Below are positions 4,451-44,704 of a stretch of DNA of 64,000 bases, piece by piece. A program made the position numbers and the translations under genes. Source of the stretch: a virus. Below the pieces are notes generated by a model that searched no databases, was not told the DNA's origin, and saw only the letters and a list, made by a program, of their open reading frames with translations. The stretch lies in the IMG/VR virus record IMGVR_UViG_3300021168_000018; one strand, written 5' to 3'. How positions within the stretch are numbered: the stretch's first letter is position 1; every line of letters starts with the position of its first letter.

Positions 4451-5048
4451 TGATTACCTTGCTCACCGTCTTCCCCTTGACAATCTTGGGCTGGACTTCC
4501 TTGCCGCCTCCAGCCATGTTCCTGAAAGCTTCCACGAACGCTACCATGATTTCCTGGTCCATCGGCTTATGCAAGTGCTTGACTGAACCGTGCATTTTCA
4601 CAGCGCCAGATATTTGTTGCTTGCTCTCCACATTCTTTTTGTAGAAGCCACGACCAGCTAGGAACTTTTCAGCGACGTTGTAGCGGAGATAGTCGTCTGG
4701 AGAGTCCATGGCTTCTTCTACGATACGAATTGCGCGACCCGCTTTGGCATCTAGGCGACCGTCGATGTTTTCGGCGTACTTGGCGGCATAGTGCAGATAG
4801 TAGTTTTTGAACAGCTTGTGATAGTGCATGTAGCGGTAGAACGTGTTGGTATCCATGCCCATCGTCTTGCAGGCATCCTTGACAGTCATTCCGTTGACGA
4901 CCTTGCGAGCTAGCTTCATTTGCCTGCGAGTCAGCTTGTCGTAGCCTCTCGGGACTATCTTCTCATCGCGCATCCGCTCTCGCATAGAACGTGTGAGAGG
5001 AGCGTCTGGATAGTCTTTGAGGAGCCTTGGGAAACGACGTATTTTCAT
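4377..5048 (-). CDS. Candidate terminase small subunit (HTH)
   Basis: HTH-like LTRRQMKLARKVVNGMTVKDACKTMGMDTNTFYRY; immediately upstream of terL; begins MKIRRFPRL. Confidence 0.5.
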   Translation of the reverse strand: MKIRRFPRLLKDYPDAPLTRSMRERMRDEKIVPRGYDKLTRRQMKLARKVVNGMTVKDACKTMGMDTNTFYRYMHYHKLFKNYYLHYAAKYAENIDGRLDAKAGRAIRIVEEAMDSPDDYLRYNVAEKFLAGRGFYKKNVESKQQISGAVKMHGSVKHLHKPMDQEIMVAFVEAFRNMAGGGKEVQPKIVKGKTVSKVINALPAPAPNADNSEVQEVDQEKAS

Positions 5049-5362
5049 AGTGGCTTTATTTTATCCTTACTGATAGAATTACTTTGGTCTACGTTGGCAA
5101 AAATCTTCTTGTAGCCTCGCGTAACGATGATGATTGTAGCGACAAAGAGCTGTCCTATGAGATGTGAATAGCGGAAAGGGACAGCTACTTCTGTGCCCTT
5201 GATAATCATCTCGTATTGCACGTTTAGATTGCCATGCTTGTCTTCAGTGATGAGCACGCGAGTTTCGGTAGTGTCCTTGTTGACGACTTCTTCCGCCATC
5301 ATTGCACCGTCGTATTTTCTTCTGGCTCTTTCTCCAGATCCATGTTGATATTGCGACCGCAC
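5045..5362 (-). CDS. Hypothetical protein
   Basis: Coupled ORF on the coding strand. Confidence 0.4.
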   Translation of the reverse strand: MRSQYQHGSGERARRKYDGAMMAEEVVNKDTTETRVLITEDKHGNLNVQYEMIIKGTEVAVPFRYSHLIGQLFVATIIIVTRGYKKIFANVDQSNSISKDKIKPL

Positions 5363-5685
5363 TGTTTCTGTGTTATCTTGATTTCCAGCTCCTGCTCCGT
5401 GTCAGCCAGTCTCTGCTCTAGCAATGTGACTGTGACGGCCATGACGTCCCACACTGTGAATTCCCGCTTAGAGCAAATCAGATTGGTCAAAGCAATCTGA
5501 CTGGCATGGTTCATGGCTGTTTGGATGTACATCTCACGGACCAGCGTATCCAGACCCATGCCGGACTCTGGTATCTCTCCCTGCATCAAATACCAGCCAG
5601 AGTAGTTTTCGAAACGCTTGATGCACTTGCCCATGCGATTGTTGATTGCTTCCTGCTCAGGAGTTAGCTTTATTTCGTCGGGCAT
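5299..5685 (-). CDS. Hypothetical protein
   Basis: RBS GAAAGGAAA before ATG at 5685. Confidence 0.5.
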   Translation of the reverse strand: MPDEIKLTPEQEAINNRMGKCIKRFENYSGWYLMQGEIPESGMGLDTLVREMYIQTAMNHASQIALTNLICSKREFTVWDVMAVTVTLLEQRLADTEQELEIKITQKQCGRNINMDLEKEPEENTTVQ

Positions 5686-6136
5686 GTTTTCCTTTCAGAC
5701 GCGGGAATCGTGGTATGATACGGATTGCATTTTTCAGAAAATGTTTCCAAGGCACTAGCCCTATCGCGAAACTTTTCTTGCCGAGGACCATTGCATAGAT
5801 GGGACAGTTGTTGGCACGCATGACCAGCACTGGAGTTGTTCCAGGTGCTTTCTTAGCGCCGTCGAGCGTCTGCTGGACCCAACGTTTTTCTTCAGATTGG
5901 TGCATCAGCAGGAAGTTTTCAAACCGTATCTTCTTTCGGTGCTTCATCTCCAGACAAAATGGAAATATCTTTGCTAGTCGCTCTGATATTTCCAAATCGC
6001 CTGCCGCACGCGGATGACCGCCGGATAATGTAGACCGCCAGCAATCCTTCTGCGTGATGCCGAACTTGCTATAGGCTTTCACTATTTCCTTGGCTATCTT
6101 ACGCTCGAACGCGCTGCCCTTGCCATGACCTTTCAT
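5657..6136 (-). CDS. Holliday junction resolvase, PD-(D/E)xK (Hjc-like)
   Basis: KGSAFERKIAKEI, AGDL, CLEMK motifs. Confidence 0.75.
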   Translation of the reverse strand: MKGHGKGSAFERKIAKEIVKAYSKFGITQKDCWRSTLSGGHPRAAGDLEISERLAKIFPFCLEMKHRKKIRFENFLLMHQSEEKRWVQQTLDGAKKAPGTTPVLVMRANNCPIYAMVLGKKSFAIGLVPWKHFLKNAIRIIPRFPRLKGKHARRNKANS

Positions 6137-6501
6137 TATTTCCGCCTGTGCTCGCTTACGAGTTTGTCTTTCTCGATATGCTTCTTAGCCTCTTTCAACT
6201 TGTGCTTGGTTTGTTTGTAGATAGCCCTGATTTCCTTGCGCTTCAGTTTGTACTGCTCACAAAGAACTTCGCCTAGACGCCTGCTTTCTGCACCAGATTG
6301 AGAGCGTTGCAGCGTCTCGTAGATTGCTAGATTTCTCTCCTCGTTTTCTATGTCCGTTGTTGATGGGACGTGGACCGTCATGCCGGCGAACACCGTCAGG
6401 AACTTTTCCGTGTCCTCTATGCCAAATATGCTATGTATCTGGGATATCAACGACTGTGGATATAACTTTCCCAATTTTTGGATGAGTGATCGTGCTGGCA
6501 T
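6136..6501 (-). CDS. Mor-like transcription regulator
   Basis: FGIEDTEKFLTVFAGMTVHVP...RNLAIY...LCEQYKLKRKEIRAI resembles the Mor/C activator layout. Confidence 0.45.
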   Translation of the reverse strand: MPARSLIQKLGKLYPQSLISQIHSIFGIEDTEKFLTVFAGMTVHVPSTTDIENEERNLAIYETLQRSQSGAESRRLGEVLCEQYKLKRKEIRAIYKQTKHKLKEAKKHIEKDKLVSEHRRK

Positions 6502-7147
6502 TTGACCTCGCCTCCAGTAGCTTATTTCTTACGACCACTAGCGAATACTGGCAATACTGCTGAATCTCTTTCTTGTCTAAGCCTAGGTCCTTGAGCTGCC
6601 GGACCACGCTGCTCTTGTTGAAGAAGAAATCCCCAGCGACCATCGTCTTGTGTATCAGCTTGCAGGCTTTGCGATGTAGCTTCTTTTTCGGTGCTACGAA
6701 ACCGTTCGTATCGAACGCTTCCACAACGGCGTCGCTTATCAGGTTCAAGACGTACTGATTTTCCGGCGTTTGGAAGACTTCCTTGCCGTTCGCTTCTGCT
6801 TCCTTTTGGGCGGATTCGTCTGTAGAGAGGCTTGAAACAGGTCGGTGAAACCTTTTGTTGATCGACTTAGACATGTTGCAAATGACAGCCCACATAAACC
6901 CAAAAGCATTTCCCCTCTGAGGCTTGAATTTCGGGATAGCTTGTAGAACTTTGAGAATGCACTCCTGCTCGATATCTGCTTTGTAGCGTTTGTCATACAT
7001 CCCCTGTTTTGAGAGTGAGGCTTTGACTAGCGGTAATGTGAGCGTTAGAATCCTATCGCGTAACTTGAAATCTTTCTTGTTGCGAACATAGCGACGCATC
7101 AGTATCGTCATTTTCCGATTGTCGAAGATTGGTTTCTTTTTAGCCAT
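6431..7147 (-). CDS. Phage sigma-factor-like protein
   Basis: Region-2-like LTLPLVKASL...DIEQECILKVLQAIPKFKPQRGNAFGFMWAVICN. Confidence 0.55.
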   Translation of the reverse strand: MAKKKPIFDNRKMTILMRRYVRNKKDFKLRDRILTLTLPLVKASLSKQGMYDKRYKADIEQECILKVLQAIPKFKPQRGNAFGFMWAVICNMSKSINKRFHRPVSSLSTDESAQKEAEANGKEVFQTPENQYVLNLISDAVVEAFDTNGFVAPKKKLHRKACKLIHKTMVAGDFFFNKSSVVRQLKDLGLDKKEIQQYCQYSLVVVRNKLLEARSNASTITHPKIGKVISTVVDIPDT

Positions 7148-9491: not shown

Positions 9492-10540
9492 ATTTCACCT
9501 CGGTATAGTTTGTTTCCCAGCTTCAAGAGTCTTTCTTGCCTTTCTCGGCCTGCAATTTCTCTGCGAACGTACTGCCTGAAAGTCCTTCTGAGATTATACT
9601 CGTCTCCCATTCTAACGGCGCTGGGAACGTTATCTTCTTTTCCGCTAACAATCTGGACATGAAAGCCAATCTCTCGCGCCGTTCTCTTGATAGCTTGTTC
9701 TGGAAGTCCAGCATGTGGTCTAACTCTGACATAGTCTCCGTGCCAGCCAGCGGTATCTTTGCGAAAACGACTGAGGCTGGCGTCAGAGTCCCAATTTCGA
9801 AACTGAGGAAAACTGGTATACACTCGTTCTGTTGTAAAAACTTTTTCTCTATCCAGACTGACACTCCAGATGCAGGGTCTGTGAATCTCACCAAATGAAT
9901 GCTGCAATGGCGAGCCGAGATAGTAGACATTGTCTGCAAGACGCTGTCTGGTATGATAATCGGATAGGAGGACGAGTCCAAATTTATCGGCTTTGAGGTC
10001 CATAACTGTGATAGCGTTTTTAGGGATGTATCCTTTTGGTCCTGTTTTGGCACCGTAAACGCCGAAGTGTCCCACAAGACTCGTTTCCTTAGTTGCCCTG
10101 CAAGACTTGATTGCCTCTTTAATCTTATCCGCAGATGGACTCCAAGGCACCACGAAAATATGCTGCCATACCAATGTCGGTTCTTCCACAATTTTGGCGA
10201 TGGGCCGAAATGCTCCCAGACTGTGCAGTACGTGTCGGCCAGATTGTCTAGATACGTCGTGGTTGCCCATGTTGATGCAGATTTCCATGCCTGCTTTATG
10301 GAGCATTTGAATCTTTCTACAAGTCGCATCGAACACCTCAATATCTATGTAGCTGTTTTCTTCGAACAGGTCACCATTGATAAGAATCTTGGTGATACCG
10401 CGCTTCTGTGCTTCCTTGAGCAGGACGTCGAAAACGTGGAGGCAGTTCCATAGGCGACTGTTCATCCCGTCCTTGCGCGTGTGACTGAACTGTTTCCACG
10501 CATGGATTTGGAGGTCTCCAGAAATGAGCCATCTGAGCAT
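9488..10540 (-). CDS. SbcD/Mre11/gp47-like metallophosphoesterase nuclease
   Basis: GDLQIH, NGDLFE, GNHD, VGHF and DYH motifs. Confidence 0.88.
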   Translation of the reverse strand: MLRWLISGDLQIHAWKQFSHTRKDGMNSRLWNCLHVFDVLLKEAQKRGITKILINGDLFEENSYIDIEVFDATCRKIQMLHKAGMEICINMGNHDVSRQSGRHVLHSLGAFRPIAKIVEEPTLVWQHIFVVPWSPSADKIKEAIKSCRATKETSLVGHFGVYGAKTGPKGYIPKNAITVMDLKADKFGLVLLSDYHTRQRLADNVYYLGSPLQHSFGEIHRPCIWSVSLDREKVFTTERVYTSFPQFRNWDSDASLSRFRKDTAGWHGDYVRVRPHAGLPEQAIKRTAREIGFHVQIVSGKEDNVPSAVRMGDEYNLRRTFRQYVRREIAGRERQERLLKLGNKLYRGEM

Positions 10541-10980
10541 TACTCCAGTTCCACCCTCTCGCCTTTGTAGATGCGCTTCGTGTGCTCCAGATTTAGCCCA
10601 TAGGCTTTCCGCAGGAATTTCCAGTCTTCTAAGTCGTGGCGCACTGTTTTCCTAAAGCCTCTAGCTCCCCTCACATGCCCGTCAGGTGGAATGTGATGCA
10701 ATTCGTGGCGAAGCACCCACAGCTTGTACGATTTCTTCTGCTTATCAAAACGATTGGCATGGAACGCGATGATGTAATCGTACTGTTCGCTAAATGTACT
10801 CCACGGCGGTCGGTTGGGGAATATCTTGCCCATCCACCTGCTATTTCGCGTGACCATGCCCATCAGTGCGATACGCTTGGTTTTCACGTGAGCCAGAACG
10901 GTCGGGAATAGCTTCTTGACGCGCTTGAGAAGTGGACGGTAGTCGTCGCGAATAATCCATTTCTTAGCGTGCCTAGCCAT
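10540..10980 (-). CDS. Putative phage metallopeptidase
   Basis: HELHH (HExxH) followed by VRHDLEDW. Confidence 0.55.
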   Translation of the reverse strand: MARHAKKWIIRDDYRPLLKRVKKLFPTVLAHVKTKRIALMGMVTRNSRWMGKIFPNRPPWSTFSEQYDYIIAFHANRFDKQKKSYKLWVLRHELHHIPPDGHVRGARGFRKTVRHDLEDWKFLRKAYGLNLEHTKRIYKGERVELE

Positions 10981-11197
10981 CGTGTGTCACCCTTGGAAAT
11001 CTGAAGTGCCCGTCGAATCTGTCTCGAAGACTTTGCTTCGCTATTTTCCTAGTCAAATACTCCAGACGCCATCTATACAGATAGTTCGCATCCAGCACTG
11101 TGATAGGTTCTCCTTTCGCCACTTTCTCGACCGCTTTCCACAACCTGTTCATAGACGCGCTATTGATTTGCATGATGCGCGGGAATCGCCTAATCAT
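10973..11197 (-). CDS. 74-aa hypothetical protein with RFPR at both termini
   Basis: ATG at 11197 overlaps the exonuclease stop; MIRRFPRI...HFRFPRVTHDG. Confidence 0.6.
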   Translation of the reverse strand: MIRRFPRIMQINSASMNRLWKAVEKVAKGEPITVLDANYLYRWRLEYLTRKIAKQSLRDRFDGHFRFPRVTHDG

Positions 11198-12377: not shown

Positions 12378-13393
12378 TCCTTGTCTAACTGTTCTCTGTG
12401 CTTCCGGTAGTATTTCGGGAACTGCTTTCTCGTCATCACGGACCCACGATATCTATATGAAGCGTGCTGCTTCTTGAAGATATCGTTCTCTACGCAATAC
12501 TCCCAGATGGATAGTGATTTGTGGATTCCCTTGTCGAAATAAATTGGGAGCAGGCAGCTTCTTTCGGGCGGCGCGACTTTGTTCTTTGTACATTCCATTT
12601 TAGAGAGATAGCCGACCTTCTCATCCGCTGAGTTCTTGATAACTTTGATTCTAGATATCCTTGCGCGAACCAAAGCGTAAAATCGCAACGCCTTCCCGCC
12701 ATACGTTGTCTCCTTGCTGCCCCACATGACGCCTAGATTGGTCCTGGTCTGATTGACGCATATCAAACAGACCTTGTTTACGAATAGGAACCGAACCAGC
12801 CGGCGAAATAGCTTCGACATCTGGAGAGCCGACCGGCCCATGTCACTGCCTTCGAGTCCGGCTTTGTTGGCGAGTTCTGACCTAGTTGGCGTCGCAGCAA
12901 TAGAATCCCAACCTATTACGATTGGGGTGTTCTGGTCCGTCTTACGGATTTCGCCAACGATTGATTTGATCTGAGCATATACGTCCTCCACTGTCTCCAC
13001 TTCGCAAATGAGCAGCTTACTTTCGTCCAGTCCCACGTTCTTGGCCCTGCGATGCTCTAGAGAATACTCCGTAGGGAAGAGAATCGTGTAGTATTTATGG
13101 CGCTGACTTTCAGCAAGTGTTTCCTCCATGATAGCACTTTTGCCACTGGCTTCATTGCCGTATATCTCAACAATTCCGGGAGGAAATCCGAGTCCGTAGC
13201 AGACAATGCAATCAATAGGTAGAATGCCGCTAGACACGTAACTTCTAGGCTGGCTAAAAACGCTGTCTCCAAGTAGCGACGTAGAATTGCCATTTTTGTC
13301 CTTGTTGTACTTTTTTATGATACGCTGCAACACTTTGTCACGGACGCCACGAGGCTCCTCACCCTTCTTCAGTCGTGGAAATCTATGTATCAT
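12341..13393 (-). CDS. recA: RecA/UvsX recombinase
   Basis: EIYGNEASGKS, WDSIAA, CVNQTR, TYGGKALRFYA, KNKVAPP. Confidence 0.92.
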   Translation of the reverse strand: MIHRFPRLKKGEEPRGVRDKVLQRIIKKYNKDKNGNSTSLLGDSVFSQPRSYVSSGILPIDCIVCYGLGFPPGIVEIYGNEASGKSAIMEETLAESQRHKYYTILFPTEYSLEHRRAKNVGLDESKLLICEVETVEDVYAQIKSIVGEIRKTDQNTPIVIGWDSIAATPTRSELANKAGLEGSDMGRSALQMSKLFRRLVRFLFVNKVCLICVNQTRTNLGVMWGSKETTYGGKALRFYALVRARISRIKVIKNSADEKVGYLSKMECTKNKVAPPERSCLLPIYFDKGIHKSLSIWEYCVENDIFKKQHASYRYRGSVMTRKQFPKYYRKHREQLDKECRQSTVVRAEK

Positions 13394-13435
13394 CTGGAGG
13401 CCTCTTCGGAAGAGGGAGAATAACCGATTCTCCCC

Positions 13436-14401: not shown

Positions 14402-14402
14402 T

Positions 14403-22269: not shown

Positions 22270-23246
22270 TCTAGCTCCCTTGGAAATCGTATTTGTCCTT
22301 GCGGATTTTCGCCAGTAATTGGCTTGAATTTCATTCTGTGTTTTCCAACTCCGTTTTGGACATTCACATACTTCCTAAACTCACAACAGGAATGCTCCAC
22401 GCTTCTAAGTGTCAGTGGCTTCCCGGGGTACAGGTATGGGAAGTCCAGTCCCAATCGCTTGAAATGCTTCTCTTGCTCGTTGGCAAGTTGTCGCATCTTT
22501 TCCAGATACTCTCCACGTTCGCCAGCCAGCGGGAATATCAACTTAATGCCGCCCTTCGCGCCTGGACCGCAGTTTGCCCAATCGTCTTCCGAAAATGGGA
22601 CCGCTTTCACTAAAATCAAATCGCAACAAATTTCATAGCTAATGAAGCTGCCGACGCACGGAATCTGCTTGAGGATTATGAACAATTGTTCTAGACTGTG
22701 GCATGATTTAATTTGATTCAAGAGTCTAGGAATAATCAACCATAACTCATCGAGGACTTCAAAGTATTTGTCTATCTTGCTCTGCCCTTTTTCATGGACA
22801 GGCAGCGTCAAGTGCGCATTCGTAAATACGCATTCTGTCTTGTGTAGTTCCTTCAGCTCTTTCTTCCACTCACGTTTGTCGTCATGCCATTCCTCATGGG
22901 AAACGAAATGTGTTTTGTCAAACGTCTCAACTCTATTCAGCAAACGATATTGTGTTGTAAGCCAGAGCAGCTCTTTAGACATAGAGCCGGACAGCGCAAG
23001 TCCAGTGCCAGCGTTCATGCATTCCAAGTAAAACTGTGTTCCACGGTCCAGCTCGCGGTACACGTTCGTGAATTTCAGGTCGCGCAATATCGGGTCCTTG
23101 GTCCACGGCGGCGGCTGCTTGAGCCTGAAACGCTTGTGCCAGATCATGTGACGCTCGAACATGAATCTGTAGAACGCGTCAAGATTCGGCCTGTACACTT
23201 CCACTCGCGGCAGGTTCTCCCACGGCTTCTTCTTGGATTTTGTCAC
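22266..23246 (-). CDS. aGPT-Pplase1 / 5-hmdU DNA kinase-like protein
   Basis: FMFERHMIWHKR...PPPWTKDPILRDLKFTNVYRELDRGT N-terminus plus an HhH-like IPCVGSFISYEICCDL. Confidence 0.75.
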   Translation of the reverse strand: MTKSKKKPWENLPRVEVYRPNLDAFYRFMFERHMIWHKRFRLKQPPPWTKDPILRDLKFTNVYRELDRGTQFYLECMNAGTGLALSGSMSKELLWLTTQYRLLNRVETFDKTHFVSHEEWHDDKREWKKELKELHKTECVFTNAHLTLPVHEKGQSKIDKYFEVLDELWLIIPRLLNQIKSCHSLEQLFIILKQIPCVGSFISYEICCDLILVKAVPFSEDDWANCGPGAKGGIKLIFPLAGERGEYLEKMRQLANEQEKHFKRLGLDFPYLYPGKPLTLRSVEHSCCEFRKYVNVQNGVGKHRMKFKPITGENPQGQIRFPRELE

Positions 23247-23589: not shown

Positions 23590-24440
23590 TTCTCCTTTGC
23601 TAGTCTAGGAAATCTAGGGAAAACTTGCGGCAGCTTATCTCTCATTTCAGGCTTCCAGTATATCTGAAGTTCGTAGTCGCTGCTCGTGGGACCGTGCTTG
23701 ATTCTGGAACTGAGGACGCCCTTCCACCGCTCCAGCAGATAGTCGTAGGCTTTCTTCTCAGCGCCGTATTTTTCACGGTTGAGATTTGCTCCACCTGGAT
23801 TGGTCCTATGCCTGAAGTCTGAGAGGACGTAATTACAGCGCAACACTTTGCCGAATGTTCTCAAATGACGCAGCGTATACTCATAGTCTTCCTTGACCAG
23901 CGTCTTCTCGTCAAAGTAGATACCGCACGGCTTGACCACGCTGAAATCCCCGAGCACTAGACAGTTTGTGGAAATGAGCGGTCTATTTTTCGGCGGTATA
24001 GTGTTCCCTGTTCGCAGACCTATGCTCATCAGTGGATTCGAGTTGGAACTTGTACCACCTAGATACACGTCTCCAACGGAGTCCATGTTCGCCTTGACTA
24101 TCATAGCCGCTGCAAGTGCGGTGAGTGGCTGCATCCTGTCCGTGGCTAGACTGAAACGCCGCAAGTCGTCTGAAATCTGCACGCAAGGAACACCTTGTCT
24201 CCATGCGTCATCCAGAGCCATGTTCCTGCTATGCGACAAATCACCGCCACATTTCACGTTCTTAGCTCCAGCTTTGTAATAGGTCTCGACTTCGCCATGA
24301 CCCACATACCACGTCGCTGAGGTGCCAAGATATTTCTTCACTTCTGACACGCTATCAGGACGCCCATGACTGATAACTGCGAAGTAGATTTTTAGGTCTG
24401 GGTGCTTCACAGTGTACCTGCTATCTTCACGAGTTCCCAC
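23586..24440 (-). CDS. GT-A glycosyltransferase, TAGT/GREB1/base-J-GT-like (paralogue 3)
   Basis: ISHGRP, SRN, SDD, KEDYEYTL, NPGG. Confidence 0.7.
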   Translation of the reverse strand: MGTREDSRYTVKHPDLKIYFAVISHGRPDSVSEVKKYLGTSATWYVGHGEVETYYKAGAKNVKCGGDLSHSRNMALDDAWRQGVPCVQISDDLRRFSLATDRMQPLTALAAAMIVKANMDSVGDVYLGGTSSNSNPLMSIGLRTGNTIPPKNRPLISTNCLVLGDFSVVKPCGIYFDEKTLVKEDYEYTLRHLRTFGKVLRCNYVLSDFRHRTNPGGANLNREKYGAEKKAYDYLLERWKGVLSSRIKHGPTSSDYELQIYWKPEMRDKLPQVFPRFPRLAKEK

Positions 24441-28507: not shown

Positions 28508-29102
28508 TTTTTCTCCTCAGCTGAGTTTTATTTACGTGTTTCACTTCTGCTCCTATTTCCCGCACCTGAGCATCGGTCAGACCTAGGACTGACTTGATGT
28601 GCCTTAGCCTGATGCGGAAAGTCATGTGTCCAGTTACCGGCTGCCCTTGCGCGTAGAGTCTATTGCGCCTACAGAAATCACGGTAGGCGGTTTCGTAGAC
28701 TTCCATCGGCGGGTCTAGCAGCGTTATCAGCAGACGCTTGGCGTCGTTTGATAACAATGGACAAATTTCGTTGTAGCGAGATTTCATACGGTCTAGGAAA
28801 TCGTCTCGCTGATATGGCAGGCTTTCTGCCTTTTCTATGGGGACTTCTACCCCTTGCTTCTTGACTACGTTTGAATCGCGGTACAGGTCTTTCAGACGAT
28901 TGCACCACGCTCGTTTGAAGTACCTTGAGAAACGAGTCTGGCCGTCTGGAAATTCCCTGCAACACTCGACCAGCGTCAAGAAGCCTTCCGCCTCCACGTC
29001 TTCAAACGCCATTTTCAGGCGTCGATTCTGGGACGCTCGCCACGCATACCATCTGATGAGCGGTTTCAAACGCCGGAGTGCGACACCGATGTCGTATGGC
29101 AT
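28500..29102 (-). CDS. Phage sigma-factor-like protein
   Basis: Region-2-like LKPLIRWYA...FEDVEAEGFLTLVEC...FSRYFKRAWCNRLKDLYR; C-terminal HTH-like segment. Confidence 0.65.
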   Translation of the reverse strand: MPYDIGVALRRLKPLIRWYAWRASQNRRLKMAFEDVEAEGFLTLVECCREFPDGQTRFSRYFKRAWCNRLKDLYRDSNVVKKQGVEVPIEKAESLPYQRDDFLDRMKSRYNEICPLLSNDAKRLLITLLDPPMEVYETAYRDFCRRNRLYAQGQPVTGHMTFRIRLRHIKSVLGLTDAQVREIGAEVKHVNKTQLRRKNG

Positions 29103-29870
29103 CTATTTCCCTCTGCCTACTTTTCCTTTCGCAGTCCTAGCTTTATTTCTAGACTTCGTTTGTACCTTGGAAACCTTAGCACGCGAGGGAATCGCCTTAT
29201 GAACCTTGGAAACAATTGTTCTCGCGCGTGACGCTCTATTACCTGCTTTCGCATTGTTTCTCCTTTTGGGTCGAACGTCCACTCGACCAGCACTTTTCCT
29301 TTGTGTCCGTTCCCGTGCCTTGACGGGTATCTTACTTTTACGACTCGCTTTCCTTTTTGCGCGTCCCAAAACTCTCTTACGAATACTAGGTCTGGGTTTC
29401 TTTCCATTAGACTCTTTGCGTATGGCGTCCGTGGCTCTCTCGATTCGTCTTGGATAAGACTCTGAGCCAATGAGGTTTTTACAGCGGGTGCAACGGACCG
29501 CCCTTTCTTCAGCATTCTCCACCTCCATTTTCCCTATTAGACAGTGACACTGTTTTGTTTCTTCCTCTCTAGGCCAGCGGAACGGACGGGGATAGCGCTT
29601 CAGCCTTCTGGGTTGTCGGACTGTGATAATGCGCCACGGCCAGTTTTCTCTTTCTTGACCGCGTTCCTTGACCCAGACCTGGACGCCGTATTTCTTGATG
29701 ATTTGATGGACCAGCGCCGTGCGGCCCGTGACCGTATCTACAACTCGTGTAATTTCTGGCACGATGTATGGCAGGAGCGCGTCACCAGACAGTTCGTTGA
29801 CCCCATACATCGTAATCATTTTCTGCTTTTCCCACTCTGCATGGATATTGCTGCGCTTTTCAGGCTCCAC
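29103..29870 (-). CDS. Hypothetical protein; basic C-terminal half overlaps another ORF
   Basis: GTG with RBS AAGGGGAG, 18 nt after motif copy 2; contains KRYPRPFRWPR. Confidence 0.45.
   Translation of the reverse strand: MEPEKRSNIHAEWEKQKMITMYGVNELSGDALLPYIVPEITRVVDTVTGRTALVHQIIKKYGVQVWVKERGQERENWPWRIITVRQPRRLKRYPRPFRWPREEETKQCHCLIGKMEVENAEERAVRCTRCKNLIGSESYPRRIERATDAIRKESNGKKPRPSIRKRVLGRAKRKASRKSKIPVKARERTQRKSAGRVDVRPKRRNNAKAGNRASRARTIVSKVHKAIPSRAKVSKVQTKSRNKARTAKGKVGRGK
29117..29515 (-). CDS. Hypothetical protein with clustered (R)FPR motifs
   Basis: Strong RBS GGAGGTG; LFPRFIRRFPRVLRFPRY. Confidence 0.65.
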   Translation of the reverse strand: MLKKGRSVAPAVKTSLAQSLIQDESREPRTPYAKSLMERNPDLVFVREFWDAQKGKRVVKVRYPSRHGNGHKGKVLVEWTFDPKGETMRKQVIERHAREQLFPRFIRRFPRVLRFPRYKRSLEIKLGLRKEK

Positions 29871-33580: not shown

Positions 33581-35062
33581 TCAGTTCACCGCCTTGCTGA
33601 TAGTGGCCTTCCCATTCCCGTTCGGCTTGGGAGTTGGAGGGACTTTATTCTCCGTCATGAAGTCGGCAGGCACGGCGTTTTCGTGCCCGTGTTCTAGTGA
33701 GAGTTGGAGCATTTTGTTGACGTCGTCATCGGTGCAATTTGCGACGTGGATGCGGTTGAGGCCCGTTTTATCCGGCGACAATATGAACATGTCGCCCTTG
33801 CCTAGCAGGTTCTCTGCTCCACGCTGGCCTAGGATGGTCTTGCTGTTCACGGCGTCTGGCATTCTGAACGCGGCGCGACCGAGGAAGTTGACCTTGATTT
33901 TGCCAGACACGACATCGACCGACGGACGCTGCGTGCAAGTGATGACGCAGATTCCAGCGGCGCGGGCCATCTGACTGATAGAGGCCATCCGTTTTGTGAA
34001 CTCCTTTTTCTCCTCCAGCACGATTTCAGCCATTTCGTCGATGACCAGCACGATGTAGTACCATTTCTCGGCCATCTTCTTGGCTGCCTGCTCTTCCAGC
34101 ATCTTGCGAACGTTGCCTTCCTTGGCTTTAAGCGCGGCTTGCTTGAGTTCGTCCGCTTCTTTCTGGAGGCGGTCGTTGAGTTCCTTGATGTTGTTGACCT
34201 TCAGCACATGAAGGTTAGCGGTGCGCCGTTTCATTTCCTGGATAAGGGTTTCCATGACGTTGAGGCAGCCCCAGACCGTGAACTCTGGCGGCATCAGCAT
34301 GTGAGGCAGCCCCTTGAACCTGAACAGCTCCACTTGCTTCGGGTCCACGAACGCGAACCGGAGTTCGCTTGGAGTGCGGATTTCTGCCAGACTGGTAATG
34401 ATTTGCTTGAGCAGTGTAGATTTGCCGGTCCCGGTAGAACCGCCGACCAGCATGTGAGGGAATGTAGCCAAGTCTTCCACGTATGGAGCGCCTTCCGACG
34501 TGAGCCCGAAGTTGAGCGGGAGCGCCATGTCGTAGCGATGCGCCAGAGTGTTCTTGAAGCAGGACTCATGCGTGACAACGAGCCTTTCTCCGTTCGGCAT
34601 GGAAACGCCGACCACTGGCTTGCCGGGGATGCGGCGGATTGTGACCGTCTCGACCGACAATGCCAGCGCGAGGTCCTCATTGAGGGACTTGAGCCTCTTG
34701 ACTCGCGTGAACCGGTCAGGCGTGAATAGGTACTCCGTCACGACCGGCCCTTTGACTATGCCGGTCACTTGACCCGGACAGTCGAAGTTTTTGCAGGACT
34801 CCGTTATCATCTTGACGATTTCTTCCTGCTTCTTGCCGACCGGGTTGAGTTCGCGTGGGAACCGTTTCTTGCCGTCTGGCTTTTTCTGGCCTTCCAACTT
34901 GAACGGTGACGTCGTGCTGCCACAGAGCGGACAGTGACGGCGCTTTGTGAGCAGGTCCTTGTTAACGATGCGGCAATTGCGACAGATTTTGTACTCGCTG
35001 ATTTTGTACATCATTTCTTCAGACAGTTTTTGCATGACTTGTCTCCATTTGTTCTCGCTCAC
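33581..35062 (-). CDS. FtsK/SpoIIIE-family DNA translocase lacking membrane anchor and gamma domain
   Basis: Alpha domain GPVVTEY...EDLALAL...IPGK, GGSTGTGKS, VIDEMAE, ARAAGI...TQRPS; N-terminal CxxC...CxxC. Confidence 0.88.
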   Translation of the reverse strand: MSENKWRQVMQKLSEEMMYKISEYKICRNCRIVNKDLLTKRRHCPLCGSTTSPFKLEGQKKPDGKKRFPRELNPVGKKQEEIVKMITESCKNFDCPGQVTGIVKGPVVTEYLFTPDRFTRVKRLKSLNEDLALALSVETVTIRRIPGKPVVGVSMPNGERLVVTHESCFKNTLAHRYDMALPLNFGLTSEGAPYVEDLATFPHMLVGGSTGTGKSTLLKQIITSLAEIRTPSELRFAFVDPKQVELFRFKGLPHMLMPPEFTVWGCLNVMETLIQEMKRRTANLHVLKVNNIKELNDRLQKEADELKQAALKAKEGNVRKMLEEQAAKKMAEKWYYIVLVIDEMAEIVLEEKKEFTKRMASISQMARAAGICVITCTQRPSVDVVSGKIKVNFLGRAAFRMPDAVNSKTILGQRGAENLLGKGDMFILSPDKTGLNRIHVANCTDDDVNKMLQLSLEHGHENAVPADFMTENKVPPTPKPNGNGKATISKAVN

Positions 35063-41224: not shown

Positions 41225-41980
41225 CTATAATGAAACGCTATTTGTTTGAAAACTGCGCTTGAGTGCTTTTTTGGCAACATGCCAGATATGCCTATGCCGG
41301 TTTAAGAACCTGGAGCACTTGCAGTAGTCTTCGAACCAGCGATTCCAAAAACTCTTCTTGTGCTTCTTGGAGTAGACAGCCAGGAACCACGGGCTCAGCT
41401 CCTTGGCGAAGGCGTAGATTGCTTCGTCAGTTTTTATTTTCTGTCCTTCCACGACTCGCTTGATTATGCCGCCCGAATCTCGTATCGAAGAGTAGATGTC
41501 CAAGTCTGACCAGCCATCGAGTTCCTTCTTCCAGTCGATATCTAGGATGTAGTGCTTTCGTTCCTTGCGGTAGACCCAGAGAAACTTTTCGATAGTGCTG
41601 TCTTTGGAAAACCAAGTCGGGTGAGGCATCCATTCCACGTTCTTAAATTTTCCATAGCGACACATGACTTTGATGTAGAGAGCGGGGTCGATGTTCTGCT
41701 GGATAAGTTTTTCTGCCAGCAAAATAAATTTCAATTTTACTTTCCAGCCTGCTTTGGTTTTGTAGACGTCGTAGTTGAAATTCCTATACCTTAGATTTCT
41801 CGAACGAGCCATCTTGTTGAACGCGATACGGATAATTTTCTCAGCGATCCTTGTTGCACGATCCAACTCTAAACGCGGAAACCGTTTTTTACTTTTGAAG
41901 TTTCTCTTCCGTCCCATTTTCTCTCCACAGGAAAAATATCTTTTTCTTTTCGGGAGGACAAGCGTCAGCGCAGTCCTCAA
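41225..41980 (-). CDS. Basic hypothetical protein (probable start 41917) with KKRFPRL
   Basis: Coding-strand ORF; its last codons encode motif copy 3. Confidence 0.6.
   Translation of the reverse strand: MRTALTLVLPKRKRYFSCGEKMGRKRNFKSKKRFPRLELDRATRIAEKIIRIAFNKMARSRNLRYRNFNYDVYKTKAGWKVKLKFILLAEKLIQQNIDPALYIKVMCRYGKFKNVEWMPHPTWFSKDSTIEKFLWVYRKERKHYILDIDWKKELDGWSDLDIYSSIRDSGGIIKRVVEGQKIKTDEAIYAFAKELSPWFLAVYSKKHKKSFWNRWFEDYCKCSRFLNRHRHIWHVAKKALKRSFQTNSVSL
41230..41242 (-). promoter_or_regulatory. Conserved upstream motif AATAGCGTTTCAT, copy 3
   Basis: Exact 13-mer, 19 nt before the ATG at 41210. Confidence 0.7.
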
Positions 41981-41999
41981 GGCGAGCGAAGCGAGCCTT
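41979..41999 (+). other. GCGAAGC mini-hairpin with tandem sheared G-A pairs (AAGGC-GA-GC-GAA-GC-GA-GCCTT)
   Basis: Symmetric stem around a GAA loop; next to an AT tract and short direct repeats. Confidence 0.5.
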
Positions 42000-42721: not shown

Positions 42722-42863
42722 GTTGAATTACGGCTATGAGTTTGAACTCCGCAAGGCAATTGTGACACTCAATTTGTGTCACCTGATGGCCTTCAATTTG
42801 GACCTGTTTCTTGACGTCAATTAACGTGAACGGATATTTACAGAACAAGCAAATGTTGAACAC
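42648..42863 (-). CDS. Small Zn-ribbon protein
   Basis: CLFC...CHNC. Confidence 0.45.
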   Translation of the reverse strand: MFNICLFCKYPFTLIDVKKQVQIEGHQVTQIECHNCLAEFKLIAVIQRGPKKKFVSNETSDGMAKQSTGGK

Positions 42864-42866
42864 TTT

Positions 42867-44369
42867 TTACCTTTCTATGATTGAAATTTTTGCGATTTTT
42901 TCATTGATGTAGTGCTTCAAACGCGCCATGGAATGCTTCATCAAATACTCGTTGTGAGTGTCAATGAAATCACTGATATACACAACATTTCCGGTTCTAG
43001 GGTTCTTTCTCAAGACACGGCCCATGCGCTGTAAAATCAACTCCCATCCAAGTCCTGCCGCCGAGTTTATCCATGCGTCCACCCCGCCTGAAATGTCCAT
43101 GCCCGTATCGAATATCGGGGATGCTAGGAGTACTCCAAGTTTCCCATTTTCAAATCTCTTTAGAACCTTTTTTCTGATAAGCAATGGCGTGCTACCTGAT
43201 AGAAATTCTACTGGCAAATCCATATTGCTCTCTAACAGTTTTTTCAATTTCAAGCCATGAGAAATCCTTGCGACCGTGACCAGAGTTTTGTAGTCCTTGT
43301 TGAGATATCGCAGCACTTCCCTAACGACCAACTCGTTGCGCTTCTTGTTCTTCACGATGCCGAGACTGTAGGCGGCTGCGAACTTTGCTTTCTTCGGTAT
43401 TTCTTCAGTGTGGACTTCTACGAAACGGATAACAGGTTTGGCGCTGCGACCCAAGTCTACGAGTTCCTTGTTTCTGACCTCGGCAATTATCGGACCTGTC
43501 ATACCGACGTAACTTAGCATTTTCTTTTTGTTTTTTCTATCGATTGTTCCGGACAGACTGAAACGCATCGGCGCTTCATTTCTATTTACAATTTTGGAGC
43601 ATTGAGTAGCACGGTTCACATGAGTTTCGTCGATAAATAGGATATCACACTTTTCTTGAAAGCGTTCGAAATCAGACTCTTGAAGTAAATTAGATGCGGT
43701 CTGCACAGTCGCAACGACAATTCCTGGTTTTTGCGGAATGCGCTTCTTACCTCCTCCAACCATAAAAATTCGTACATCGTTTGGAAGATGCTTACGGAAT
43801 CTATCAGCCGTTTGCTGTGCAAGTCCAGCACGATGGATAAGGAAGAGCACACGAGGCATTCGTTTGAGTTGTCTGTGAAATTCAGAGACAATAGCGCAAG
43901 CGCATTCGGTCTTGCCTGTATTAGTAGATGCATGTATGATTCCTTTGCCTTTTCGCAAAGCCTTGTTTACGATTTCAACTTGCTCAGCGCGATTCTCGAT
44001 ACTATCCTCAAACTGAAATCTCTTGATTGGTTTGAAAACTGGAAGTTGCTGACGATTGTCTTTGACTGAATATTTCACGCCTTTCTTGTCCAAAAACTTT
44101 ATCACCATATCTAGAAGTCCGCTGGCAAACGTGTCCCCGCGTCTCTCATAGAACTTGATGTACTGTACAGATTCCTTCAACTGTTCAATCTTCTTATCGC
44201 GCTTTTCGTCGTTCTTGATATCACTGAAATAGCCCACTCTTTTCAGTGCTGCTCGCTGCCTCCACCAATTGTTCTTGTCCTTGACTCGCAGGCATCTAAA
44301 CATCTTCTTCAACTGGCGCTCTGGGCCAGAGAATGACGTGCGCGCCGGACGTACAGTGAGTTCAATCAT
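42867..44369 (-). CDS. Superfamily 2 helicase (UvsW-like)
   Basis: STNTGKT, DETH, SGT, DTGMD, QRMGRVLR. Confidence 0.88.
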   Translation of the reverse strand: MIELTVRPARTSFSGPERQLKKMFRCLRVKDKNNWWRQRAALKRVGYFSDIKNDEKRDKKIEQLKESVQYIKFYERRGDTFASGLLDMVIKFLDKKGVKYSVKDNRQQLPVFKPIKRFQFEDSIENRAEQVEIVNKALRKGKGIIHASTNTGKTECACAIVSEFHRQLKRMPRVLFLIHRAGLAQQTADRFRKHLPNDVRIFMVGGGKKRIPQKPGIVVATVQTASNLLQESDFERFQEKCDILFIDETHVNRATQCSKIVNRNEAPMRFSLSGTIDRKNKKKMLSYVGMTGPIIAEVRNKELVDLGRSAKPVIRFVEVHTEEIPKKAKFAAAYSLGIVKNKKRNELVVREVLRYLNKDYKTLVTVARISHGLKLKKLLESNMDLPVEFLSGSTPLLIRKKVLKRFENGKLGVLLASPIFDTGMDISGGVDAWINSAAGLGWELILQRMGRVLRKNPRTGNVVYISDFIDTHNEYLMKHSMARLKHYINEKIAKISIIER

Positions 44370-44704
44370 TTGAGTCTGGGCCAGTGTCGCCGTTTCAAGT
44401 CATACCTTGGAAAACGGTGAACCTTGCCATTTTCATATCGTGGAAACCGCATCAACGGTACGACCAGCGTTTCGATGTCTACGTGCTCCTTTTTCGTGGA
44501 ATTATCCCATTCTACAGTGACGCTGCCGGGACTCTTATAGACTACCTTGCCGTATCTCTTGTTTCCTGCGAAAAGCTGAAGAAAGAACCTGGATTCGTTT
44601 TTGAGTGTTTGTATCTGCACTTCCTTGAATTCCACAATCCTCGGGAATCTGCGTATTTCTAGCCTTGGAAACCGTTTGATGCGTTTCTGTATAGATAGCA
44701 GCAC
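44366..44704 (-). CDS. 112-aa protein with four RFPR motifs plus HWPR around a small beta-rich core
   Basis: GTG with RBS GGGG, 20 nt after motif copy 4; coupled to the SF2 helicase. Confidence 0.7.
   Translation of the reverse strand: MLLSIQKRIKRFPRLEIRRFPRIVEFKEVQIQTLKNESRFFLQLFAGNKRYGKVVYKSPGSVTVEWDNSTKKEHVDIETLVVPLMRFPRYENGKVHRFPRYDLKRRHWPRLK

What the first reader, a model, noticed from the sequence alone, without database searches (positions are those of the whole stretch)
5022..44674. The short linear motif RFPR occurs 15 times in 10 unrelated non-virion proteins
Copies: TerS candidate N-term (5025-5036); resolvase C-term (5699-5710); 74-aa ORF both ends (11177-11188, 10991-11002); RecA N-term (13373-13384); 5-hmdU kinase-like C-term (22278-22289); glycosyltransferase C-term (23604-23615); 132-aa ORF twice (29165-29194); FtsK (34853-34864); basic ORF N-term (41873-41884); 112-aa ORF four times (44405-44674). 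Variants RYPR, RWPR and HWPR also occur. Codons vary freely (CGN and AGR at both Arg positions; TTT/TTC; CCA/CCG/CCT), so selection is on the peptide. Most copies sit in terminal tails appended to conserved folds. None is in the virion or GT9 genes at 44.9-64 kb. My rough estimate from typical residue frequencies is well under one chance copy per window. Inference: a phage-wide address tag, e.g. a docking motif recruiting replication, recombination, modification and packaging enzymes to a hub or condensate, a modification site, or a degron. I know of no described phage system using this motif.
Basis: partly seen in the sequence, partly recalled or inferred. Interest (0 to 1): 0.9.

Follow-up and report, generated by a model that had tools for sequence, protein, structure and literature searches.

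The report
Shared RFPR tail tag in phages
A whole clade of ~100-kb soil phages attaches the same four-residue peptide, Arg-Phe-Pro-Arg, to the floppy ends of many unrelated DNA-handling proteins. It is kept unchanged while everything around it mutates, so it looks like a common address or docking tag, but what reads it is unknown.

Summary
The window has 15 in-frame RFPR copies in 10 proteins, against 0.14 expected (Poisson p about 1e-25), plus one off-frame copy. There are none on the other strand. Codons vary, and no DNA-level word explains the pattern.

The tag is conserved across a clade. The RecA N-terminal RFPR is kept in 56 of 68 metagenomic orthologues (60 counting RWPR, RYPR and RHPR) down to 45% identity. 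Entropy is 0 bits at R, P and R, but 2-3.8 bits in the flanks. None of 52 outgroup RecAs has it. A 93-kb relative (G001) has RFPR as its most over-represented tetrapeptide (17 vs 0.21), at the same positions in TerS, FtsK, the kinase, RecA and small proteins.

The consensus is [I/P/V]-x-R-[F>Y,W,H]-P-R-[L/Y/F]. Of 59 copies, 53 lie within 30 residues of a protein end. Small beta-barrel or Zn-finger proteins carry 2-5 copies on low-confidence (probably disordered) tails.

Best reading (about 0.5): a docking tag read by one common receptor, which I could not identify. Rivals are a nucleic-acid hook, an enzyme recognition site and a condensate sticker. Tests of candidate readers were negative or uninformative.

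I found no described phage system with this motif. The scan's first-stage reader noted the same motif in another genome.

The parts
5025..5036 (-). RFPR at residues 5-8 of the TerS-like HTH protein (gene 4377-5048)
   Evidence: The same N-terminal position is kept in L003, L004, G001 (two copies) and L092.
5699..5710 (-). RFPR at residues 143-146 of 159 in the PDDEXK_15 endonuclease or resolvase (gene 5657-6136), beyond the domain match (4-120)
   Evidence: The orthologue in L088 keeps it; L171 lacks it.
10973..11197 (-). 74-aa ORF with RFPR at both ends (11177-11188 and 10991-11002), overlapping by 8 nt the start of the PhageMetallopep gene (10540-10980)
   Evidence: A small multi-RFPR ORF occupies this slot after the FEN gene in L001, L003, L004, G001, L088, L092, L171 and L172, although the rest of its sequence differs.
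13373..13384 (-). RFPR at residues 4-7 of the RecA/UvsX-like recombinase (gene 12341-13393), before the RecA domain (20-290)
22278..22289 (-). RFPR at residues 320-323 of 326 in the 5-hmdU DNA kinase (HMUDK_hel; gene 22266-23246)
   Evidence: The C-terminal RFPR or RWPR is kept in G001, L002 and L092. It is RFAR in L001, and the tail is absent in L170.
23604..23615 (-). RFPR (overlapped by VFPR at 23613-23624) near the C-terminus of a TAGT-like glycosyltransferase (gene 23586-24440)
   Evidence: The orthologue in L002 keeps it.
29117..29515 (-). 'Frame-B' small protein with a C-terminal tail LFPR (29204-29215), RFPR (29183-29194), RFPR (29165-29176). It overlaps the 3' part of the Zn-ribbon gene in another frame and lies just upstream of the sigma-like gene.
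   Evidence: Homologous frame-B proteins with three C-terminal RFPRs occur in G001 and L170.
29103..29870 (-). Small-beta-barrel plus Zn-ribbon protein. Its inter-domain linker carries RQPR, RYPR (29586-29597) and RWPR (29568-29579).
   Evidence: (R-x-P-R-x2-[KR]-R-[YWF]-P-R-P-F-R-[WF]-P-R is invariant in 21 homologues)
34853..34864 (-). RFPR at residues 67-70 of the FtsK/SpoIIIE-like translocase (gene 33581-35062), in the linker before the alpha domain (79-157)
   Evidence: The G001 orthologue has it at residue 57.
41873..41884 (-). RFPR near the N-terminus of a conserved protein of unknown function (ORF 41225-41980; the likely start is the ATG at 41917, MGRKRNFKSKKRFPRL)
   Evidence: The G001 orthologue has it at residue 11.
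44366..44704 (-). 112-aa multivalent protein: RFPR x2 (44663-44674, 44639-44650), a beta-barrel core, RFPR x2 (44438-44449, 44405-44416), then HWPR (44375-44386). Its stop overlaps the start of the SF2 helicase gene.
   Evidence: homologues all carry RFPR at one or both ends; core pLDDT about 90, tails 51-56
28792..28803 (-). Off-frame RFPR-coding 12-mer inside the sigma-like gene (28500-29102). It is the out-of-frame reading of the residues DDFLD and is probably not translated.
   Evidence: G001 has the same 11-nt word (CGATTTCCTAG) inside its sigma-like gene.

Best explanation
RFPR is a selected short linear peptide motif with the extended consensus [I/P/V]-x-R-[F, rarely Y/W/H]-P-R-[L/Y/F]. 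It sits in terminal tails or inter-domain linkers. Two structure models give these regions low confidence, so they are probably disordered.

The carriers form a largely conserved set in a clade of ~90-107-kb soil phages with 5-hmdU-derived DNA modification genes. They include the RecA-like recombinase, TerS-like protein, PDDEXK resolvase, FtsK-like translocase, 5-hmdU DNA kinase and TAGT-type glycosyltransferase. In relatives they also include an endonuclease VII protein, the phage metallopeptidase and the probable portal.

Most likely each tail docks into the same pocket of one common, conserved reader (a hub). This would bring these enzymes to the same place, probably phage DNA.

Shown: enrichment, peptide-level selection, terminal position in low-confidence tails, conservation across the clade, and gain and loss on individual carriers.
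For: Enrichment: 15 copies vs 0.14 expected in the window and 17 vs 0.21 in G001, where it is the top tetrapeptide. Density is 0.19-0.53 per kb of coding strand in 12 of the 13 clade loci (0.05 in the tag-poor L005). It is 0.025 per kb in 151 unrelated RecA-bearing loci totalling 2 Mb.

Peptide-level selection: all synonymous codons are used, at orthologous sites too. The TTT preference matches the general Phe-Pro codon-pair context, and GATTTCC is not enriched on the coding strand.

Conservation: 56 of 68 clade RecAs keep RFPR in the first 40 residues (60 with the W/Y/H variants). Entropy is 0 bits at R, P and R and 0.45 bits at F, against 2.2-3.8 bits in the flanks. None of 52 outgroup RecAs has it. 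The tag-less RecAs are nested inside the tagged clade, so they are secondary losses. The tag keeps the same positions in TerS, the kinase, FtsK, the 251-aa protein, the Zn-ribbon protein and the small ORFs across genomes with 48-82% RecA identity.

SLiM-like context: 53 of 59 copies lie within 30 residues of a terminus, against 26% expected (p 8e-25). They lie outside Pfam domains. AlphaFold gives the tails pLDDT 51-56 next to a core at about 90, and 60-76 for the linker of the Zn-ribbon protein.

Specific recognition: all four core positions are tight, K never replaces R, and only aromatic residues or His replace F. Hydrophobic preferences at -2 and +1 and acidic residues after the motif fit a protein pocket better than a DNA groove.

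Turnover typical of such motifs: RFAR in the L001 kinase, a tail on the metallopeptidase in relatives but not in the window, and tails missing on RecA, kinase and GT in the L005/L170 lineage.
Against: No reader has been identified. The one complex prediction (metallopeptidase with the neighbouring 74-aa RFPR protein) gave no verdict. In the monomer models the motif regions have low confidence, so nothing suggests they pack on their own beta-barrels.

Candidate phage readers that track the tag-rich genomes are missing from lineages that still use RFPR. These are the N-terminal extension of the HU-like protein, the C-terminal domain of the acidic protein, and PhageMetallopep.

Near-invariance of four consecutive residues is stricter than in most docking motifs and is also typical of enzyme recognition sites. 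R-not-K specificity, and the fact that most carriers of known function act on DNA, would equally fit a nucleic-acid hook. The host is unknown, so host hubs could not be tested.
Confidence: 0.5

Rival explanations
1. Nucleic-acid hook. RFPR would work like an AT-hook: the two arginines sit in the minor groove or on the backbone, and the aromatic residue stacks on a base or on the sugar-type modification. This would give DNA enzymes an extra grip on heavily major-groove-modified phage DNA. The multi-copy small proteins would then be architectural DNA binders.
For: The distribution mirrors that of AT-hooks: several copies on small proteins, single copies appended to DNA enzymes. Most carriers of known function act on DNA, including the probable portal and endonuclease VII in G001. 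R is never replaced by K; from established knowledge, Arg is preferred over Lys in narrow minor grooves. The residues before the motif are basic and depleted in acidic residues. The Zn-ribbon protein with three RxPR motifs has a long K/R-rich tail. The genome encodes a dUMP-hydroxymethylase-like enzyme, a 5-hmdU kinase, TAGT glycosyltransferases and a radical-SAM enzyme.
Against: Acidic residues are enriched just after the motif (21-23% vs 13% background). RecA tails run RFPR-[L/Y] and then an acidic linker. Hydrophobic positions at -2 and +1 would be exposed to solvent on DNA. The bulky Phe replaces the Gly that lets an AT-hook enter the groove. The L170 lineage has the kinase and a TAGT enzyme but no tails on them. 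The polymerase, helicases, primase, FEN and HU-like protein lack the tag.
Confidence: 0.2
2. Enzyme recognition site. The tetrapeptide would be the site of a phage or host enzyme, either an arginine-modifying enzyme (ADP-ribosylation, phosphorylation, glycosylation, methylation) or a site-specific protease or degradation adaptor. The enzyme would switch or remove the tagged proteins at a set time. The multi-copy small proteins would be decoys or regulators.
For: Four near-invariant consecutive residues with strict Arg resemble enzyme sites. A small multi-RFPR ORF is tightly linked to the PhageMetallopep gene in the window and in L001, L003, L004, G001, L088 and L092, and the peptidase itself ends in an RFPR tail in several relatives. 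The window encodes a protein with a DRAT-type arginine ADP-ribosyltransferase domain (1687-2853). Terminal tags are typical of bacterial degrons (established knowledge).
Against: Several copies are the very last residues of the protein (RFPR-stop in G001, RWPR-stop in L092), and many lie 2-3 residues from the N-terminal Met. Cleavage there would remove almost nothing. L171 keeps RFPR on RecA and on the small ORF but has no PhageMetallopep. The DRAT-like domain is absent from G001-G003. The complex prediction for the peptidase with the 74-aa protein gave no verdict.
Confidence: 0.12
3. Condensate sticker. RFPR (two Arg plus an aromatic residue) would be a sticker that partitions carriers into a coacervate. 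The coacervate would be built from the conserved acidic/poly-Lys charge-block protein (27278-28507) and the multivalent RFPR proteins, in analogy to the R-motifs that bind the acidic tracts of nucleophosmin.
For: A 409-aa protein with long D/E tracts alternating with K blocks is conserved in the window, G001 and L170. It lies next to the most conserved RFPR locus: Zn-ribbon protein, frame-B protein, sigma-like gene, acidic protein. A gp32-like protein also has a long acidic tail. Multivalent RFPR proteins form conserved families.
Against: Generic sticker-type interactions would not need a fixed order R-F-P-R or an invariant Pro. Most carriers have a single copy.
Confidence: 0.1
4. Not a peptide feature: a DNA or RNA word (promoter, binding site, repeat) or chance.
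For: Some copies lie close to gene starts, and the last Arg codon AGG can form part of the next gene's Shine-Dalgarno sequence, for example at 22278-22289. TTT and xGA codons are over-used in the motif.
Against: 15 of 16 copies are in the coding frame. Synonymous sites vary freely, at orthologous sites too. The TTT bias matches the general F-P codon-pair context, and GATTTCC is not enriched on the coding strand. Shuffles never exceed 3 copies. The motif is conserved at the amino-acid level over 68 RecA orthologues.
Confidence: 0.01

Closest known systems
Sliding-clamp-binding peptides (bacterial beta-clamp motif QL[SD]LF; phage T4/RB69 gp45-binding C-terminal tails of gp43, gp33 and gp55; eukaryotic PIP-box)
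   Same: A short peptide at the extreme N- or C-terminus of many unrelated DNA-transaction proteins, in flexible tails, gained and lost on individual carriers, and first recognisable purely by sequence recurrence. In T4 both DNA enzymes and sigma-associated factors carry the tail. Here a protein whose gene abuts the sigma-like gene carries three RFPR copies.
   Different: The sequence is unrelated: basic/aromatic/Pro rather than hydrophobic QLxLF. No clamp or clamp-loader domain was found among the window ORFs scanned (Pfam on 49 ORFs, PHROGs on 20), and the polymerase is family A. The polymerase and FEN, the classic clamp clients, lack the tag.
AT-hook (core R-G-R-P) of HMGA and of many chromatin enzymes
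   Same: A core of four residues with two strict arginines and a proline. Several copies on small architectural proteins and single auxiliary copies on the ends of DNA-acting enzymes. Unstructured on its own.
   Different: Phe (or Y/W/H) replaces the obligatory Gly. The flanks are partly acidic and hydrophobic. No DNA binding has been shown.
Cargo-targeting peptides (encapsulin cargo-loading peptides, microcompartment encapsulation peptides, T4 capsid-targeting sequence)
   Same: A terminal peptide shared by unrelated enzymes that serves as an address.
   Different: Those peptides are longer (about 10-20 residues), often helical, and direct cargo into a shell. The carriers here (TerS, RecA, FtsK, DNA-modifying enzymes) are not plausible capsid cargo, and no shell other than the capsid is evident.
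R-motifs binding the acidic tracts of nucleophosmin (nucleolar partitioning)
   Same: An R-x-x-R spacing, multivalent carriers, and a co-encoded protein with long acidic tracts.
   Different: R-motifs are degenerate; RFPR is fixed at all four positions. This is a eukaryotic system, and nothing equivalent is described in phages.

Membership tests
Short linear motif (SLiM) in the general sense | 3-10 residues with a few fixed positions, recurring in non-homologous proteins | tested here: met
   The RFPR core recurs in 10 protein families in the window and in more in relatives.
Short linear motif (SLiM) in the general sense | Located in disordered or accessible regions outside folded domains | tested here: met
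   The motifs lie outside Pfam matches. 53 of 59 lie within 30 residues of a terminus. Tails have pLDDT 51-56 and the Zn-ribbon linker 60-76.
Short linear motif (SLiM) in the general sense | Motif more conserved than its flanks across orthologues | tested here: met
   In the RecA clade, entropy is 0-0.45 bits in the core and 2.2-3.8 bits in the flanks. The motif is invariant in 21 Zn-ribbon homologues.
Short linear motif (SLiM) in the general sense | Binds a defined partner domain | not testable with these tools
   The single complex prediction gave no verdict. A pull-down is needed.
Beta-clamp / gp45 clamp-binding motif | Consensus QL[SD]LF or a hydrophobic LxxLF-type tail | tested here: not met
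   The consensus is [IPV]-x-R-F-P-R-[LYF].
Beta-clamp / gp45 clamp-binding motif | A clamp (and usually a clamp loader) that the clients share | tested here: not met
   No DNA_pol3_beta, PCNA or gp45-like domain was found in the window ORFs scanned. The polymerase is DNA_pol_A in the relatives' orthologues. The host clamp could not be examined.
AT-hook | Core R-G-R-P with an invariant Gly | tested here: not met
   Position 2 is F, Y, W or H and never G.
AT-hook | Binds the minor groove of AT-rich DNA | not testable with these tools
The flank composition is mixed.
Site-specific protease cleavage site | Residues on both sides of the scissile bond, and a meaningful product after cleavage | tested here: not met
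   Some copies end the protein (RFPR-stop, RWPR-stop) or lie 2-3 residues after the Met.
Twin-arginine (Tat) signal peptide | [ST]-R-R-x-F-L-K followed by a hydrophobic h-region at the N-terminus | tested here: not met
   About half the copies are C-terminal. The N-terminal copies are followed by charged linkers, not an h-region.
Capsid or encapsulin cargo-targeting peptide | Carriers are packaged cargo, and the tag is recognised by shell or scaffold | not tested
   The carriers (TerS, RecA, FtsK, DNA-modifying enzymes) make this unlikely. No virion proteomics is available.

The most novel reading that the evidence does not exclude
RFPR is the address code of a phage-built DNA-processing compartment or condensate. 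Multivalent RFPR beta-barrel and Zn-finger proteins, together with the conserved acidic charge-block protein, would form a scaffold on modified phage DNA. A single terminal RFPR would be enough to route recombination, resolution, base-modification, translocation and packaging proteins into it. That would make it a linear, transplantable localisation signal for a bacterial virus, which has not been described.
Probability: 0.15. Interest if true: 0.92.

Novelty: new variant of a known kind. Interest (0 to 1): 0.8.

Why it matters
As far as the literature searches here reach, bacteriophages are not known to use a proteome-wide linear peptide tag. The nearest precedents are clamp-binding tails. 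Here one four-residue tag is kept on a dozen protein families across a deep clade of uncultured soil phages with modified DNA. This implies an unknown reader that organises recombination, DNA modification and packaging.

The tag is short, terminal and portable, so the hypothesis can be tested directly with peptide pull-downs, tag swaps and GFP fusions. If it holds, it would give both a new organising principle of phage DNA metabolism and a practical targeting tag. The finding also shows that such motifs can be discovered from metagenomic sequence alone.

Tried and rejected
- **DNA-level motif: rejected.** 15 of 16 copies are in frame, there are none on the plus strand, the codon bias is explained by the F-P codon-pair context, and GATTTCC is not strand-enriched.
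- **Cultured relatives: none.** Megablast of 24 kb against 50,697 phage records gave no match. tblastn of RecA gave hits all under 60% identity, the listed best at 30-33%.
- **Whole-genome look-ups.** No genome is held for the window. Metagenome loci are not searchable by handle.
- **Metagenome scan with the RecA alignment.** It returned only bacterial-type RecAs at 30-36% identity, so that scan was wasted. The C-terminal sub-alignment had no searchable stretch.
- **FtsK single-protein scan of IMG/VR.** Nothing found.
- **Complex prediction (metallopeptidase 10540-10980 with the 74-aa RFPR protein).** No verdict, so it counts neither for nor against binding.
- **AlphaFold monomers.** The RFPR regions of the Zn-ribbon protein and of the 112-aa protein have low pLDDT, so there is no sign that they pack on their own beta-barrels. 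Foldseek gave only weak small-barrel hits such as KOW, Tudor, SH3 and Sm. PDB sequence searches found nothing significant.
- **PhageMetallopep as the obligatory reader: weakened.** L171 has RFPR on RecA and on the small ORF but no such gene.
- **HU N-terminal extension or acidic-protein C-terminal domain as a universal reader: weakened.** L170 lacks both yet keeps multi-RFPR proteins.
- **DRAT-like ADP-ribosyltransferase as a universal writer: rejected.** It is absent from G001-G003.
- **Triple-motif DNA pattern scan of IMG/VR.** The hits were mostly off-frame readings of tandem repeats, so it says nothing about how widespread the tag is.
- **Other checks.** Rfam on 36.3-38.4 kb and a tRNA scan found nothing. 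Literature searches for RFPR with phage and for short linear motifs in phage replication found nothing relevant.

Full report
**1. The observation**

The window is a densely packed phage genome segment with essentially all genes on the minus strand. A six-frame search finds the RFPR-coding pattern 16 times on the minus strand and never on the plus strand. The sixteenth (28792-28803) lies out of frame inside the sigma-like gene, where it is the out-of-frame reading of the residues DDFLD.

From the amino-acid composition of about 20,000 residues, 0.14 copies are expected. Two thousand within-protein shuffles gave a mean of 0.15 and never more than 3. RFPR ranks second among all tetrapeptides. 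The others at the top are low-complexity runs (acidic, poly-Lys, poly-Thr) and FPRL, which overlaps RFPR itself. Every RFP tripeptide is followed by R. Single-substitution neighbours such as KFPR, RFPK and RFxR occur at background level, and only RYPR and RWPR are slightly raised.

**2. Peptide or DNA?**

All six Arg codons, both Phe codons and all four Pro codons are used across 81 copies in the clade. Orthologous RecA sites differ at synonymous positions. TTT is over-used in the motif, but Phe-Pro dipeptides outside the motif show the same shift. The DNA word GATTTCC is not enriched on the coding strand. A DNA or RNA element is therefore rejected, and selection acts on the peptide.

**3. Where the motif sits**

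Pfam and PHROG matches show that the motif lies outside the recognised domains:
- residues 5-8 of a TerS-like HTH protein;
- residues 143-146 of a 159-aa PDDEXK_15 nuclease (domain 4-120);
- residues 4-7 of RecA (domain 20-290);
- residues 320-323 of a 326-aa 5-hmdU DNA kinase (domain 22-297);
- residues 67-70 of the FtsK-like protein, just before its alpha domain.

The 284-aa protein is TAGT-glycosyltransferase-like by language-model features.

Over 59 copies from non-redundant clade loci, 53 lie within 30 residues of a protein end, against 26% expected (p about 8e-25). The extended consensus is [I/P/V] at -2, [R/K/L/H] at -1, then R-F-P-R, then [L/E/T/Y/F] at +1. Acidic residues are excluded before the motif and enriched after it.

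AlphaFold models place the copies of the 112-aa protein on tails with pLDDT 51-56, flanking a five-stranded barrel at about 90. The RxPR triplet of the Zn-ribbon protein lies in a linker of pLDDT 60-76 after a barrel at about 92. Foldseek gives only weak matches, to small barrels of the KOW, Tudor, SH3 and Sm kind.

**4. Conservation in related phages**

No cultured phage is close. The sequence comes from soil metagenomes, and the window's own contig is 104 kb.

The RecA search returned a sharply separated clade of 68 proteins at 45-100% identity to the query (the top hit is the window's own RecA), many on contigs of 90-107 kb. Bacterial RecAs follow at 37% or less. Fifty-six of the 68 have RFPR in their first 40 residues, and four more have RWPR, RYPR or RHPR. 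Column entropy is 0 bits at R, P and R and 0.45 bits at F, against 2.2-3.8 bits around them. None of 52 outgroup RecAs has the motif anywhere. In a maximum-likelihood tree the four full-length tag-less RecAs are nested inside the tagged clade, so the tag is ancestral and was lost secondarily.

RFPR density on the coding strand is 0.19-0.53 per kb in twelve of the thirteen clade loci (0.05 in the tag-poor L005). It is 0.025 per kb in 151 unrelated RecA-bearing loci totalling 2 Mb.

A 92.9-kb relative (G001; 56% RecA identity; collinear with the window) was fetched whole. There RFPR is the single most over-represented tetrapeptide, 17 vs 0.21.

The carriers are largely the same across these genomes:
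- RecA at the N-terminus;
- TerS at the N-terminus;
- the kinase at the C-terminus, sometimes as the very last four residues;
- a glycosyltransferase or a 463-aa protein at the C-terminus;
- the FtsK-like protein in its linker;
- the 251-aa protein at the N-terminus;
- the Zn-ribbon protein in its linker;
- the small ORF after the FEN gene, and the small protein before the SF2 helicase;
- in relatives only: the C-terminus of the PhageMetallopep protein, an endonuclease VII protein, and the C-terminus of the probable portal.

Individual carriers gain and lose the tag. It is RFAR in the L001 kinase, there is no tail on the window's metallopeptidase, and there is no tail on RecA, the kinase or TAGT in the L005/L170 lineage.

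**5. Multivalent carriers**

Three or four families of small proteins carry several copies.

- The Zn-ribbon family has a barrel followed by an invariant stretch, R-x-P-R-x2-[KR]-R-[YWF]-P-R-P-F-R-[WF]-P-R, then a CxC...CxxC ribbon and a K/R-rich tail (21 members).
- A second protein overlaps the 3' part of that gene in another frame. It is conserved in the window, G001 and L170 and ends in three xFPR motifs just upstream of a sigma-like gene.
- The 112-aa family has one or two RFPR copies before the barrel core and two or three after it (seven members).
- The small ORF after the FEN gene has RFPR at one or both ends, often next to an FCS-type Cys motif.

The locus Zn-ribbon protein, frame-B protein, sigma-like gene, acidic charge-block protein keeps its RFPR copies even in the tag-poor lineage.

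**6. What it most likely does**

The features are those of a short linear docking motif read by one common partner: a short fixed core, low-confidence terminal context, recurrence on unrelated proteins, conservation against variable flanks, and turnover on individual carriers. Most carriers of known function act on phage DNA after replication (recombination, junction resolution, translocation, packaging, thymidine hypermodification). My best reading, at about 0.5, is a tag that brings them to one reader, probably on phage DNA. The multivalent small proteins would be scaffolds, adaptors or competitors. The hydrophobic preferences at -2 and +1 and the acidic linkers after the motif favour a protein pocket over a nucleic-acid groove.

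- The metallopeptidase is linked to a multi-RFPR ORF in most genomes. However, L171 keeps tagged RecA and the small ORF without it, and the complex prediction gave no verdict.
- The HU-like protein has a ~105-residue N-terminal extension, and the acidic protein has an extra C-terminal domain, in the tag-rich window and G001. Both are missing in L170, which still has multi-RFPR proteins.
- A DRAT-like arginine ADP-ribosyltransferase domain (1687-2853) is not conserved in G001-G003.
- The host is unknown, so host hubs are untested.

**7. Rivals**

- An AT-hook-like nucleic-acid hook (0.2). It fits the strict Arg, the DNA-related carriers and the one-copy versus many-copy distribution. The acidic and hydrophobic flanks and the bulky Phe fit it poorly.
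- An enzyme recognition site (0.12). It fits the near-invariance of four residues. Cleavage is implausible for copies that end the protein or sit 2-3 residues from the start.
- A condensate sticker with the acidic charge-block protein (0.1). This is attractive, but it does not explain the fixed residue order.
- A DNA-level element or chance. This is excluded.

**8. Comparison with what is known**

The closest functional analogues are clamp-binding tails: bacterial QL[SD]LF, the T4 gp45-binding tails on gp43, gp33 and gp55, and the PIP-box. The sequence is unrelated, no clamp was found among the ORFs scanned, and the polymerase is family A. It is therefore not a member of that family. It fails the AT-hook core test (no Gly), the Tat signal test and the cleavage-site test. 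It meets the general criteria of a short linear motif except for the partner, which cannot be tested here. Full-text searches found no paper on RFPR in phages.

The scan's own notes report the same R-[F/W/Y]-P-R recurrence in another genome (e1-5356013). I did not examine that genome, but I found the motif independently in more than ten other related contigs.

**9. Verdict**

The 'address tag' interpretation is the best available but is unproven. Interest is 0.8. Novelty: a new variant of a known kind (a shared terminal docking motif). There is a 0.15 chance that it is something categorically new, a linear localisation code for a phage DNA-processing compartment.

Noticed in passing
window 29103-29870 (frame A) and 29117-29515 (frame B); also L170:4087-4744 and G001 58452-59130: Two overlapping reading frames are both open and both conserved at the protein level in three genomes that differ by about 50%. 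Frame A encodes the barrel plus Zn-ribbon protein with a K/R-rich tail. Frame B encodes a ~95-aa protein (core ...KVLVEWTFDP...) ending in three xFPR motifs. This could be true overlapping genes or a programmed frameshift. The frame-B stop abuts the start of the sigma-like gene.
   Followed up: partly
window 1687-2853 (-): A 388-aa protein has a C-terminal match to DRAT, an arginine-specific ADP-ribosyltransferase (Pfam E 1.4e-7, above the cut-off). It lies between the TerL ATPase gene (3191-4450) and the 215-aa ORF 818-1465 that the first-stage reader calls the TerL nuclease domain (not checked here), near the portal. Only its first ~30-100 residues are shared with other proteins near the portal in G001 and G002. 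It may be a packaged, Alt-like injected enzyme with a common N-terminal targeting module.
   Followed up: partly
window 13436-14455 and 14403-14864 (-): The 339-aa protein between a UvsY-like mediator (PHROG 231) and RecA has a basic N-terminus, a Cys-rich CxxC-type putative Zn finger and a ~90-residue acidic tail. This is the architecture of T4 gp32, with no detectable sequence match (no significant PDB hit). It is probably the phage SSB and is conserved in all lineages examined.
   Followed up: partly
window 6136-6501, 6431-7147, 28500-29102 (-): There is a Mor-like late activator (PHROG 836) and one sigma-like protein with a weak Sigma70_r2 match (28500-29102). The 238-aa protein (6431-7147) resembles sigma-70 region 2 by eye only (FKPQRGNAFGFMWAV); it has no Pfam or PHROG match. 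The phage probably redirects host RNA polymerase in stages.
   Followed up: no
window 30008-30658 (-) vs L170:754-1116: The HU-family protein carries a ~105-residue N-terminal extension in the window and in G001 (216 and 241 aa). It is a plain 120-aa HU in the tag-poor lineage. The acidic charge-block protein likewise has an extra ~100-residue C-terminal domain only in the window and G001.
   Followed up: partly
window 28792-28803 (-) and G001 59427-59437: An off-frame RFPR-coding word lies inside the sigma-like gene. G001 has the same 11-nt word (CGATTTCCTAG) inside its sigma-like gene. This may be chance or a constraint on these codons.
   Followed up: partly
window 11195-11215 and 13391-13411 (-); L001 ~1580-1610: The sequences just upstream of two RFPR-leading starts translate to RR(A)GLQ-M-I-x-RFPR. 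The L001 kinase tail reads PRGLQMRFAR. This hints that a short 'ribosome-binding site plus ATG plus tag' cassette may spread the tag between genes. It was noticed post hoc and could be coincidence.
   Followed up: no
L005, L170, L171, L172, L173 (relatives): The tag-poor sublineage carries genes with Acb2/Tad1-hairpin and Sequestin matches (anti-CBASS/Thoeris sponges), a Band_7 protein and a SprT-like peptidase next to the polymerase. None of these was seen in the window.
   Followed up: no
It gave no Rfam match at E <= 0.01, and the window holds no tRNA gene.
   Followed up: partly
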